Of a stretch of 64,000 nt of DNA, positions 27,268 through 27,970 are shown piece by piece (position 1 is the first letter of the stretch; each line of letters opens with the position of its first letter). Source of the stretch: a virus (lineage: Duplodnaviria > Caudoviricetes); IMG/VR virus record IMGVR_UViG_3300033076_001357, positions 1 through 64,000 of that record; one strand, 5' to 3'. The translations under genes were made by a program, and so were the position numbers. The notes under the pieces were generated by a model. That model was not told the DNA's origin. It saw only the letters and a list, made by a program, of their open reading frames with translations, and searched no databases.

Positions 27268-27269
27268 AG

Positions 27270-27357
27270 TGTGCCGGACGGGAATCGAACCCGCATCTGT
27301 GAGTGTCTCAGCCAGGTCCTACCTCTGGCTTCACCGTCTTACTTAGACCACCGGCAC
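27270..27357 (-). ncRNA. Atypical tRNA-like RNA (anticodon ambiguous; could be degenerate Leu-TAG)
   Basis: GTGCCGG/CCGGCAC acceptor, GTCT/AGAC D arm, GCGGG-TTCGATT-CCCGT T arm; middle AGCCAG-AGGTAGGAC-CTGGCT lacks a canonical 7-nt U33 loop. Confidence 0.7.
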
Positions 27358-27406
27358 CGCCCGGCTCCTAGGCGCCGGGCCAGGTCGGGTGTGCCTTCCC
27401 GACCAG

Positions 27407-27537
27407 TGAGCGGGGCAGGAATCGAACCTACCTAGGCGGGCTGCCGCCCTATTTGCCTCCAAGGTGAAGGGGAATCGAACCCCACACCCCACCCAGGGGA
27501 ACCCGGAATCGAACCGGATACCTTATCCACTCCGCTC
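27407..27537 (-). ncRNA. tRNA-like RNA with three T-loop hairpins
   Basis: GAGCGG(A)/(C)CCGCTC-A closing stem; GGTTCGATTCC at 27505-27515, 27471-27481, 27418-27428. Confidence 0.6.
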
Positions 27538-27560
27538 TCGCTGTTGAGTTGTTGTGCTAG

Positions 27561-27636
27561 TGGACCCGGCGGGATTCGAACCCGCTACGCGCGCTATCAC
27601 CAGCCGCCGGGTGCACATCCGGCAGACGACGGGCCC
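27561..27636 (-). ncRNA. tRNA-like RNA with acceptor and T arms but a single internal arm
   Basis: GGGCCCG/CGGGTCC-A; GCGGG-TTCGAAT-CCCGC; interior CTGCCGG-ATGTGCAC-CCGGCGG. Confidence 0.65.
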
Positions 27637-27643
27637 AGGAACG

Positions 27644-27808
27644 TTAGTTGGTCTTGACGGGCTTCTTGCACTTACCCCGACCACAGGGGGCCGGGTCGTG
27701 GCGCTGGCCGCACGGCCGGACCTTCCACGCCTTGCCGCTACGGCGCTCGGTGTTGGTGGCGACGGCGACGGCCTTCTTCCCGCCCCCGCCGGAGTTCTTC
27801 TTTGCCAC
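27644..27808 (-). CDS. 54-aa Lys/Arg-rich peptide with C-x3-H-x4-C-x4-C (not in ORF track)
   Basis: AAAGGAG RBS, GTG start; MAKKNSGGGGKKAVAVATNTERRSGKAWKVRPCGQRHDPAPCGRGKCKKPVKTN. Confidence 0.6.
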   Translation of the reverse strand: MAKKNSGGGGKKAVAVATNTERRSGKAWKVRPCGQRHDPAPCGRGKCKKPVKTN

Positions 27809-27846: not shown

Positions 27847-27970
27847 GGGACGGAGCGGGATTCGAACCCGCATCTGTTGCCAGGGACCGGGACAGCCCAC
27901 CCGAGGAGATCCGCTCCCTTTGTGGGGCCCCTGACGTGCGCTTCCGCTCTACCGTTTGAGCTATCCGTCC
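27847..27970 (-). ncRNA. tRNA-like RNA with canonical acceptor, D and T arms and a ~70-nt structured insert replacing the anticodon arm
   Basis: GGACGGA/TCCGTCC; GCTC-AAACGGTA-GAGC; GCGGG-TTCGAAT-CCCGC; insert closed by GTCAGGG/CCCTGGC. Confidence 0.75.

What the first reader, a model, noticed from the sequence alone, without database searches (positions are those of the whole stretch)
27407..27537. A 131-nt RNA with three TTCGATT T-loop hairpins inside one acceptor-like stem
Seen: GGTTCGATTCC occurs three times, each closing a 4-5 bp stem; the last directly precedes CCCGCTC-A, which pairs with 5' GAGCGG. This fits no tRNA, tmRNA or Y RNA architecture I know. Inference: a multivalent T-loop display that could titrate T-loop/elbow-binding proteins.
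Basis: partly seen in the sequence, partly recalled or inferred. Interest (0 to 1): 0.7.

Follow-up and report, generated by a model that had tools for sequence, protein, structure and literature searches.

The report
Triple T-arm tRNA-mimic phage RNA
This 131-base stretch is a gene for a tRNA-shaped RNA with three "T-arm" hairpins and no anticodon; it belongs to a conserved family carried by many phages that I could not find described, and its job is unknown, most likely imitating tRNA towards a host factor.

Summary
Three exact GGTTCGATTCC T-loops each close a 4-5 bp stem, and all lie inside a 6-bp acceptor-type stem followed by a discriminator A.

It is not an oddity of this window. A covariance model built here scores the window 134.5 bits. 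It finds 49 IMG/VR phage contigs, cultured Streptomyces phages (Comrade, Moab; 103-104 bits) and a phage region in Streptomyces sp. AHA2. All six helices covary: 94% of cells pair against 65% in shuffles.

Members sit almost always among same-strand tRNA genes. Rfam 15, ARAGORN and the literature searches give no name for it. In phage Comrade part of it is mis-annotated as tRNA-Ser.

New here:
- The best-conserved non-tRNA element is an AAAUA segment followed by a 4-bp stub hairpin and CGC. This is a truncated anticodon arm.
- T-arm 2 is replaced by a plain hairpin in some lineages.
- Ro60-like (TROVE) genes occur in 10 of 50 member records against 2 of 52 controls, but this phage has none.

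Function is untested. The best guess is a tRNA mimic or decoy matured by host tRNA enzymes.

This scan met the same family before on other DNA (e1-5748655, e1-5851149, e1-4039387, e1-4040930).

The parts
27532..27537 (-). 5' strand of the acceptor-type stem (GAGCGG), RNA positions 1-6
   Evidence: Pairs with 27408-27413. All 6 pairs covary in the family; 95.8% of cells are paired.
27519..27531 (-). A7 (usually unpaired, opposite C124), then a 12-nt linker carrying UGG and AAGGUA. The linker resembles a D-loop GG followed by a variable loop. RNA positions 7-19.
   Evidence: Conservation in 28 distinct members: A7 in 19, G10 in 21, G11 in 22, G16 in 22, A19 in 22.
27502..27518 (-). T-arm 1: 5-bp stem and UUCGAUU loop, RNA positions 20-36
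   Evidence: Exact T-loop. Three of the 5 stem pairs show compensatory changes; 96.4% paired.
27487..27499 (-). Hairpin 2: CCCC / UGGGU / GGGG, D-arm-like with GG in the loop, RNA positions 39-51
   Evidence: All 4 pairs covary, but only 71% of cells are paired, making it the weakest helix. The loop G is present in 24 of 28.
27469..27483 (-). T-arm 2: 4-bp stem and UUCGAUU loop, RNA positions 55-69
   Evidence: 100% paired, and the two variable pairs covary. It is replaced by a plain hairpin in L263, L264, L269 and L120/L125/L050.
27455..27468 (-). Linker carrying the third GG (UUCACCUUGGAGGC), RNA positions 70-83. A small CCU/AGG hairpin is possible.
   Evidence: GG present in 22-24 of 28. 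The small hairpin has weak support: 63.5% paired against 52.5% in shuffles.
27450..27454 (-). AAAUA, the family's most conserved unpaired segment, RNA positions 84-88
   Evidence: A85 and A86 in 27 of 28; U87 and A88 in 23 of 28. These positions were not imposed by the search pattern.
27438..27449 (-). Stub hairpin GGGC / GGCA / GCCC in the place of the anticodon arm (4 bp plus a tetraloop, no anticodon), RNA positions 89-100
   Evidence: 97% paired. The inner pairs covary and the loop sequence is variable. A genuine tRNA-Gln matched by the same pattern places this hairpin at the anticodon stem.
27432..27437 (-). GCCUAG connector in the variable-loop position, RNA positions 101-106
   Evidence: G101 and C102 are invariant, 28 of 28. 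A helix closing onto GGC (positions 81-83) shows no covariation.
27415..27431 (-). T-arm 3: 5-bp stem and UUCGAUU loop, adjoining the acceptor stem as in tRNA, RNA positions 107-123
   Evidence: 100% paired; 4 of 5 pairs covary.
27407..27414 (-). C124 (opposite A7), the 3' acceptor strand CCGCUC, and discriminator A. No CCA is encoded.
   Evidence: Read from the sequence. The discriminator is A in 16 of 28. No CCA follows in the window, where the next bases are CUG.

Best explanation
The stretch is a gene, on the minus strand, for a non-decoding RNA derived from a tRNA. It belongs to a conserved family carried by phages.

Anatomy. A tRNA-type acceptor stem (6 bp plus an A.C mismatch) adjoins T-arm 3, as in tRNA. 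The anticodon arm is reduced to a 4-bp stub with a tetraloop, preceded by a near-invariant AAAUA and followed by an invariant GC. Two further T-arms are inserted between the 5' acceptor strand and the D region. Each of the three T-arms is preceded by a GG-bearing, D-loop-like segment, so the RNA can form up to three tRNA-type elbows and one acceptor end.

How it probably works (inferred, not shown). It is co-transcribed with the neighbouring tRNA and tRNA-like genes in the exonuclease-Sak4 operon. Host tRNA enzymes cut it out: RNase P at the 5' end, 3' trimming, and CCA addition, because the phage encodes no CCA-adding enzyme. It cannot read a codon. It then acts as a stable tRNA mimic that occupies or diverts a host factor recognising the acceptor/T-arm/elbow part of tRNA, either as a decoy or as a scaffold.

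How sure I am of each step. That it is a real, selected, structured RNA gene of this family: about 0.95. That it is matured like a tRNA: about 0.7. That it acts by tRNA mimicry towards a protein or RNA that binds tRNA: about 0.45. The target is unknown.
For: Structure: the three exact T-loops and the closing stem are present.

Family: model R1 scores the window 134.5 bits and 31 IMG/VR loci at 67 bits or more. Eighteen more were found with a pattern that does not require T-arms 1 and 2. Cultured Streptomyces phages Comrade and Moab score 103-104 bits. A phage-gene region of Streptomyces sp. AHA2 scores 122.8 bits.

Covariation: 94.1% of cells are paired against 64.8% in shuffles. There are 222 double-change cells against 65.5 expected. 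Sliding the 3' partners by 1-3 columns drops pairing to 47-57%.

Context: in 23 of 31 loci there are same-strand tRNA genes within 2.5 kb, often only 5-90 nt away. Some members have their own terminator, for example L011.

Phage-borne: only 2 of 120 triple-T-loop stretches in prokaryote genomes are members, and 3 of 151 Streptomyces species genomes have a match.

Dependence on host enzymes: the phage has no CCA-adding enzyme, RtcB or Ro60.

Precedent: a tRNA-like domain in a non-tRNA is processed by RNase P, receives CCA and is modified by TruB and DusA. This was shown for YrlA (PMC4201824).
Against: No conserved protein neighbour was found, so nothing points to a specific target.

The acceptor sequence and the discriminator are not conserved. 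This fits identity-independent recognition but gives no handle on the partner.

T-arm 2 is lost in some lineages, so valency of three cannot be essential.

The AAAUA/stub/CGC motif is conserved more strongly than simple tRNA mimicry requires. It may be the real functional site.
Confidence: 0.5

Rival explanations
1. It is a Ro60-associated RNA, a Y-RNA analogue. It binds a Ro60/Rsr ring protein, either phage-encoded or the host's, and tethers or regulates an RNA-decay or RNA-repair machine, as YrlA does.
For: TROVE (Ro60-like) genes occur in 10 of 50 member-bearing records against 2 of 52 non-member records from the same pattern scans. Fisher's test gives p = 0.014, uncorrected for relatedness. 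Among records at least 90% complete the counts are 6 of 16 against 2 of 20, p = 0.10. In 5 of the first 7 TROVE-positive records the gene lies 1-8 kb from the RNA. Known Y RNAs carry tRNA-like domains (PMC4201824).
Against: This phage (92% complete) has no TROVE gene, and 10 of 16 near-complete member genomes have none. The RNA has no GNCGAAN0-1G motif and no long 5'/3' Ro-binding stem; its ends form an acceptor stem. The Rfam YrlA model does not hit any member. Phage Comrade has a separate weak YrlA-like match (28 bits) 0.7 kb upstream of its Ro-like gene, 8.6 kb from this RNA.
Confidence: 0.12
2. It is a chargeable tRNA-like RNA. After CCA addition it is aminoacylated by a synthetase that ignores the anticodon (Ala, Ser or Leu type). 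It then feeds or blocks a non-ribosomal process that depends on aminoacyl-tRNA, or it titrates EF-Tu.
For: The acceptor stem plus T-arm minihelix and a discriminator base are intact. A hairpin precedes T-arm 3, loosely like a class II tRNA; the tRNA-Sec model gives 25 bits. ARAGORN and annotators read relatives as tRNA-Ser.
Against: The acceptor sequence, the discriminator and the 3:70 pair are not conserved; G3:U70 occurs in only 3 of 28. The tRNA-Ser call arises from reading T-loop 2 (UUCGAUU) as an anticodon loop. About 6 nt, not 1, separate the hairpin from the T-stem. Extra T-arms are not needed for charging.
Confidence: 0.07
3. It is only a processing or stability element. A tRNA-like fold recruits RNase P or RNase Z to cut the operon transcript, or protects flanking RNAs, and the excised RNA itself has no function.
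For: In the window it lies inside a protein-coding operon, between the exonuclease and the Sak4-like recombinase. There is a promoter-like site at 29450-29422 and no terminator on that strand. tRNA-like punctuation is known elsewhere (general knowledge).
Against: A single acceptor/T-arm minihelix would be enough. The family also conserves two extra T-arms, three GG segments and the AAAUA/stub/CGC motif. In most phages it sits among tRNAs that already supply processing sites, or it stands alone with its own terminator.
Confidence: 0.08
4. It binds tRNA rather than imitating it. Two of its T-loops interdigitate, as in RNase P, T-box stem I and the L1 stalk, and form a platform that stacks on the elbow of host or phage tRNAs.
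For: Several T-loops lie in one compact RNA. Interdigitated double T-loops are the known RNA device for docking tRNA elbows (PMC4810234, listed; otherwise general knowledge).
Against: Each T-loop is a full 7-nt tRNA-type loop on a G-C-closed stem and is matched one-to-one by a preceding GG segment. That is the tRNA elbow arrangement. T-arm 2 can be lost. No specifier-like or CCA-pairing element is conserved apart from the GG segments.
Confidence: 0.05
5. It is decayed DNA: three tRNA 3' remnants left by recombination or integration at tRNA genes, with no function as RNA.
For: Phage attachment sites often copy tRNA 3' ends (general knowledge). The three T-loops in this window are identical.
Against: The same order of parts, with compensatory changes in all helices, is found in about 50 phage lineages ranging from 34% to 67% GC. 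The conserved non-tRNA motif cannot be explained by decay.
Confidence: 0.02

Closest known systems
Canonical tRNA, especially class II and tRNA-Sec (Rfam RF00005, RF01852)
   Same: An acceptor stem adjoins a 5-bp T-arm with a perfect T-loop. GG-bearing, D-loop-like segments are present. There is a discriminator base and no encoded CCA, as is common in actinobacterial tRNA genes. It is encoded among tRNA genes. It very probably derives from a tRNA.
   Different: It has no anticodon arm, only a 4-bp stub with a tetraloop. It carries two additional T-arms. The seventh acceptor pair is usually A.C or A.A. It is 131 nt long. It fails RF00005 (no hit at E up to 10) and RF01852 (25.4 bits against 47).
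YrlA-type bacterial and phage Y RNAs (Rfam RF02553; Chen et al. 2014, PMC4201824)
   Same: Both are non-coding RNAs that imitate the T-arm, D-arm and acceptor part of tRNA. YrlA also occurs in phages. It gives the precedent for RNase P cleavage, CCA addition and tRNA-type modification of a mimic. There is a modest co-occurrence with Ro60-like genes.
   Different: YrlA has one tRNA-like module in permuted order (T, then AS, then D), held on a long Ro-binding stem with a GNCGAAN0-1G motif, and lies within 4 kb of a Ro60 gene. Here the RNA ends themselves form the acceptor stem, there are three T-arms, the motif is absent, and this genome has no Ro60 gene.
Phage T4 stable RNAs rnaC (species 1, 139 nt) and rnaD (species 2)
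   Same: These are small stable RNAs encoded at the end of a phage tRNA gene cluster. rnaC ends in a tRNA-type T-arm and acceptor sequence. Their function is still unknown (my own knowledge).
   Different: They are not homologous. Model R1 gives 12.8 bits on rnaC and nothing on rnaD. T4 rnaC has a single T-arm and a different interior.
tRNA-like domain of tmRNA (Rfam RF00023)
   Same: An acceptor stem and T-arm without an anticodon arm. In Streptomyces phages Comrade and Moab the RNA lies within about 260 nt upstream of the phage tmRNA gene (93 nt in Comrade).
   Different: It has no tag reading frame and no pseudoknots. The 3:70 pair is G3-C70, not G3:U70. The tmRNA models give only 18.9 bits, from the permuted model, over part of it.

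Membership tests
   134.5 bits, E = 7.6e-42, model positions 1-134. This is the top score of all loci, but the window was one of the 22 seed sequences.
   All parts are present in this order.
   The record is a virus record of 85 kb. tRNA-Phe and three tRNA-like genes lie on the same strand within 450 nt.
tRNA (RF00005) | Cloverleaf with a 5-bp anticodon stem and a 7-nt anticodon loop | tested here: not met
   Only a 4-bp stub with the tetraloop GGCA stands in that place. ARAGORN finds no tRNA here.
tRNA (RF00005) | Score at or above the Rfam gathering threshold (29 bits) | tested here: not met
   No RF00005 match overlaps the element at E up to 10.
tRNA (RF00005) | An acceptor stem directly followed by a T-arm with the T-loop consensus | tested here: met
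   A 6-bp stem plus A.C, then the 5-bp T-arm 3 with a UUCGAUU loop.
YrlA / Y RNA (RF02553) | Score at or above the Rfam gathering threshold (69 bits) | tested here: not met
   No YrlA match on the element. The only YrlA match in the region (20.9 bits) spans two neighbouring tRNA genes. There is none on 8 member loci.
YrlA / Y RNA (RF02553) | Encoded within about 4 kb of a Ro60 (TROVE) gene on the same strand (criterion of PMC4201824) | tested here: not met
   No TROVE match in the 85-kb genome, which is 92% complete.
YrlA / Y RNA (RF02553) | GNCGAAN0-1G motif near the 5' end, on a 5'/3' stem that binds Ro60 | tested here: not met
   The motif is absent from the 131 nt, and the ends form a tRNA-type acceptor stem (motif as defined).
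tmRNA (RF00023, RF04321) | Gathering score (47 bits), a tag reading frame and pseudoknots, and the G3:U70 alanine determinant | tested here: not met
   18.9 bits on part of the element. ARAGORN reports no tmRNA. The 3:70 pair is G-C.
Phage T4 rnaC / rnaD | Sequence and structure homology to the T4 RNAs | tested here: not met
   R1 scanned with filters off over the T4 tRNA region gives 12.8 bits on rnaC, below the scores of tandem tRNAs.

The most novel reading that the evidence does not exclude
The RNA is a phage counter-defence molecule of a new kind. It would be a multivalent tRNA decoy, matured by the host's own tRNA enzymes, that soaks up an abortive-infection effector. Such an effector would recognise tRNAs by their acceptor end and elbow rather than by their anticodon; examples are nucleotidyltransferase toxins that act on the acceptor end, or nucleases that cut the T-loop or acceptor stem. 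The other anticodon-less tRNA look-alikes in the same operon would be further decoys. The data do not exclude this reading, but nothing here points to a particular defence system.
Probability: 0.2. Interest if true: 0.85.

Novelty: new variant of a known kind. Interest (0 to 1): 0.65.

Why it matters
Phage tRNA gene clusters are usually read as codon-usage or anti-defence supplies of real tRNAs. This family shows that many phages also keep, under clear structural selection, an RNA that retains everything about a tRNA except the ability to decode. These phages range from 42-kb actinophages to 390-kb jumbo phages and from 34% to 67% GC. The RNA multiplies the elbow.

If its target is found, it would reveal which host process that recognises the tRNA body matters during infection. 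Candidates are processing, modification, Ro60-type RNA surveillance, and tRNA-directed defence.

It is directly testable, because cultured Streptomyces phages (Comrade, Moab and relatives) carry it.

In practice, tRNA finders and annotators miscall part of it as tRNA-Ser(CGA), which inflates phage tRNA inventories.

Tried and rejected
- Searching IMG/VR for relatives of the neighbouring Sak4-like protein gave no loci.
- BLAST of the window element against cultured phages found nothing. BLAST of members L097, L084 and L073 also found nothing. Only L057 gave hits.
- Clustering of all ORFs within 6 kb of 31 members found no protein family shared beyond close relatives.
- RtcB was found in 1 of 30 member records and not in this genome. 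The rtcB linkage noted elsewhere in the scan is therefore not general.
- No CCA-adding enzyme is encoded in this genome.
- A helix closing GGC (positions 81-83) onto GCC (101-103) around the AAAUA bulge shows no covariation. The small hairpin around the third GG has only weak support. The fold of that region is left open.
- Streptomyces phage Hiyaa is syntenic (exonuclease, then tRNA-Glu, then Sak4, then primase) but has no member in the slot.
- T4 and mycobacteriophage Bxz1 have no member.
- Literature searches for a multi-T-arm phage RNA found nothing relevant. The library lacks most subscription journals.

Full report
**What is in the sequence**

The feature is read on the minus strand, from 27537 down to 27407.

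GGTTCGATTCC occurs exactly three times inside it, at 27515-27505, 27481-27471 and 27428-27418. A fourth exact copy lies in the next tRNA-like gene. Allowing one mismatch, the window holds 9 such sites against about 1 expected by chance.

Each copy is the loop and closing pairs of a hairpin:
- T1: UCCGG/CCGGG
- T2: GGGG/CCCC
- T3: GUAGG/CCUGC

T3 is followed by C, then CCGCUC, then A. CCGCUC pairs with the 5' GAGCGG. The seventh position is an A.C mismatch.

The minimum-free-energy fold contains the closing stem and all three hairpins (-61.5 kcal/mol, z = -2.4). ARAGORN does not call the stretch. No Rfam 15 family reaches its threshold. The best overlaps are tRNA-Sec at 25.4 bits (threshold 47) and permuted tmRNA at 18.9 bits.

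**Setting**

The window is part of an 85-kb IMG/VR virus record that is 92% complete and about 66% GC.

Its primase-polymerase finds only actinophages. The best matches are Streptomyces phages of the Hiyaa group, at about 30% identity.

On the minus strand, a promoter-like site at 29450-29422 precedes the following genes in order:
- a PD-(D/E)XK exonuclease (29416-28430)
- a tRNA body with a 69-nt insert (27970-27847)
- a 54-codon basic ORF
- a 79-nt mini tRNA-like RNA (27636-27558)
- the element under study
- an 89-nt RNA that ARAGORN calls tRNA-Leu but Rfam does not
- a good tRNA-Phe
- a Sak4-like annealing protein
- a DUF669 protein
- the primase-polymerase

Phage Hiyaa has the same gene order, but only a tRNA-Glu in the slot between exonuclease and Sak4, and no relative of the element.

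**It is a family**

A scan of IMG/VR for three exact T-loops at similar spacing returned 11 loci. Three of them (L014, L011, L018; 65%, 38% and 34% GC) showed the same order of parts, with different but complementary closing stems.

I aligned 22 members with MAFFT (A2) and built covariance model R1. R1 scores the window 134.5 bits. It scores 31 of these loci at 67 bits or more, while tandem tRNAs score below about 45 bits.

On the 28 distinct sequences:
- 94.1% of cells form standard pairs, against 64.8% after shuffling.
- There are 222 cells with changes on both sides, against 65.5 expected.
- Sliding the partner by 1-3 columns drops pairing to 47-57%.
- All six helices show compensatory changes. 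Hairpin 2 is the weakest, at 71% paired.

Covariation was also evident in the alignment that had not been fitted to the structure.

**Control for ascertainment**

The T-loops were imposed by my search pattern. I therefore searched again with a pattern built only from the non-tRNA motif and T-arm 3 (AAUAGG, gap, CCGC, gap, T-loop). This complete scan returned 55 loci.

Besides members already known, 18 new ones score 72-118 bits. That gives 49 IMG/VR contigs in all.

In these independently found members:
- T-arm 1 is nearly always present, though degenerate in L259 and L265.
- T-arm 2 is usually present. It is replaced by a plain hairpin in L263, L264 and L269, and in the L120/L125/L050 group.

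The invariant core is therefore the acceptor stem, T-arm 1, the AAAUA/stub/GC motif and T-arm 3. Three T-arms are typical but not obligatory.

**Anatomy**

Outside the helices, the conserved positions are:
- A7
- a (U)GG shortly after the acceptor strand
- an AGGUA-like run before T-arm 1
- GG in the loop of hairpin 2
- GG in the linker after T-arm 2
- A85, A86, U87, A88, G89 and G90, each present in 23-27 of 28
- C99, C100, G101 and C102, each present in 26-28 of 28

The same pattern also caught a genuine tRNA-Gln(CUG) (L260/L266). In that tRNA, AAAUAGG is the 3' side of the D region running into the anticodon stem. This places the family's stub hairpin at the anticodon arm, cut down to 4 bp with a variable tetraloop. 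It places GCCUAG at the variable loop.

The RNA thus reads as a tRNA that has lost its anticodon and gained two extra T-arms. Each T-arm is preceded by its own D-loop-like GG. There are three potential elbows and one acceptor end.

The fold of the linker around the third GG is not settled.

**Where it occurs**

*Gene context.* In 23 of 31 loci there are same-strand tRNA genes within 2.5 kb, often only 5-90 nt away. Others stand alone with a terminator. Several low-GC members have a 9-11 bp leader/trailer stem beyond the acceptor stem. CCA is generally not encoded.

*Cultured phages.* Eight cultured Streptomyces phages of the Gilsonvirus group match by BLAST. R1 gives 103-104 bits in Comrade and Moab. 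In Comrade the first two thirds are annotated "tRNA-Ser(tcg)", and in Moab nothing is annotated. The RNA lies upstream of the phage tmRNA gene, 93 nt away in Comrade and about 260 nt in Moab. ARAGORN makes the same tRNA-Ser(cga) miscall in L190, because UUCGAUU of T-loop 2 can be read as an anticodon loop.

Only two are members. One of them, in Streptomyces sp. AHA2, is surrounded by phage primase, polymerase and sigma-factor genes. Of 151 Streptomyces species genomes sampled, 3 have a match.

The family is thus essentially phage-borne.

In AHA2 and in L014 the RNA is preceded by a 51-nt mini tRNA-like RNA, homologous to the 79-nt one in the window.

**Search for a partner**

No protein family is shared by the neighbourhoods beyond close relatives. 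This phage has no Ro60, RtcB or CCA-adding enzyme. RtcB occurs in 1 of 30 member records.

Ro60-like (TROVE) genes are more interesting:

| Records | Members with TROVE | Non-members with TROVE | Fisher p |
|---|---|---|---|
| All | 10 of 50 | 2 of 52 | 0.014 |
| At least 90% complete | 6 of 16 | 2 of 20 | 0.10 |

The non-members come from the same scans. The tests are not corrected for relatedness, and many contigs are fragments. In 5 of the first 7 TROVE-positive records the gene lies within 1-8 kb of the RNA.

Against a general Ro60 role:
- Most complete member genomes, including this one, lack the gene.
- The RNA lacks the YrlA hallmarks.
- Comrade has a separate weak YrlA-like match next to its Ro-like gene.

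I keep this as a lead, not a conclusion.

**Interpretation**

*Shown:*
- It is a real, selected, structured RNA gene of a widespread phage family.
- It cannot decode.
- It is not a tRNA, tmRNA, YrlA or T4 rnaC/rnaD by the tests made.

*Inferred from context and from the YrlA precedent (PMC4201824):* it is co-transcribed with tRNAs and matured by RNase P, 3' trimming and CCA addition.

*Inferred from anatomy only:* it works by presenting tRNA elbows and an acceptor end to something that binds the tRNA body.

Two findings suggest that simple multivalent display is not the whole story: the strongly conserved AAAUA/stub/GC motif, and the dispensability of T-arm 2.

**Novelty**

I found no description in Rfam 15 or in the searchable literature. 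tRNA-like non-coding RNAs of phages are a known kind (YrlA, T4 species 1 RNA). This architecture is a new variant.

The scan has reported the same family from other genomes (notes e1-5748655, e1-5851149, e1-4039387, e1-4040930). I re-derived the family independently here. I added:
- the ascertainment control
- the reading of the stub as a truncated anticodon arm
- the optional T-arm 2
- the TROVE statistics
- the conserved pairing with a mini tRNA-like RNA

Noticed in passing
window 27558-27636 (-): A 79-nt mini tRNA-like RNA lies 20 nt upstream of the element. It has a 7-bp acceptor stem with a G3:U70 pair, discriminator A, a good T-arm and no anticodon arm. The Rfam tmRNA model aligns its two ends (30.3 bits, below the threshold of 47). 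A 51-nt homologue precedes the triple T-arm RNA in L014 and in Streptomyces sp. AHA2 (L221), without the G3:U70 pair.
   Followed up: partly
window 27847-27970 (-): A tRNA body (Rfam tRNA 44.5 bits) carries a 69-nt insert where the anticodon arm should be.
   Followed up: no
window 27269-27357 (-); genome 64942-65025: ARAGORN calls an 89-nt tRNA-Leu(tag) here, but Rfam tRNA does not match it (tRNA-Sec 18.9 bits only). The genome has another tRNA-Leu(tag), with tRNA-Pro and tRNA-Ile, just outside the window. The copy in the window may therefore be a further mimic.
   Followed up: partly
window 27644-27808 (-): A 54-codon Lys/Arg-rich ORF with Cys/His spacing and an AAAGGAG ribosome-binding site lies inside the tRNA-like array. 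It has no Pfam or PHROG match and is not conserved next to the RNA in L014 or L221.
   Followed up: partly
L009, L012, L010/L017, L013, L037, L054 and others (IMG/VR): A second recurring multi-T-loop design occurs in phages. Directly after a normal tRNA come a T-arm, a CUC...GAG hairpin, a GAnCUGGUGnGA-like D segment and another T-arm. No Rfam family, YrlA included, reaches E 0.001 on it except a sub-threshold tmRNA match (44.1 bits against 47) over part of it in L012.
   Followed up: partly
L129 2485-2566 (Streptomyces phage Comrade, NC_048728 77362-77443): The annotated tRNA-Ser(tcg) is the first two thirds of the triple T-arm RNA (R1 match at 2491-2621). The same annotation is found in SparkleGoddess, Belfort and Karp.
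   Followed up: yes
L271 2660-2720 (phage Comrade 68659-68719): A weak YrlA-like match (28.2 bits, tRNA-like part of the model) lies in an unannotated gap 0.7 kb upstream of the Ro-like protein gene gp103.
   Followed up: no
L131-L250 (genome contigs): About 118 stretches with three T-loops within about 120 nt occur in bacterial and archaeal genomes and are not members of this family. Genera include Oerskovia, Curtobacterium, Terriglobus, Streptomyces and haloarchaea, and some genomes hold two or more copies. I did not establish what they are.
   Followed up: no
L084, L079, L078, L105, L065 (IMG/VR, low GC): In these members the leader and trailer form a further 9-11 bp stem beyond the acceptor stem. 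This suggests a different route of excision or an extra binding stem. It is absent in the window.
   Followed up: no
window 27358-27406 (-): Two GC-rich hairpins without U-tracts (GGUCGGG...CCCGACC and GCCCGGC...GCCGGGC) fill the spacer between the element and the next tRNA-like gene.
   Followed up: no
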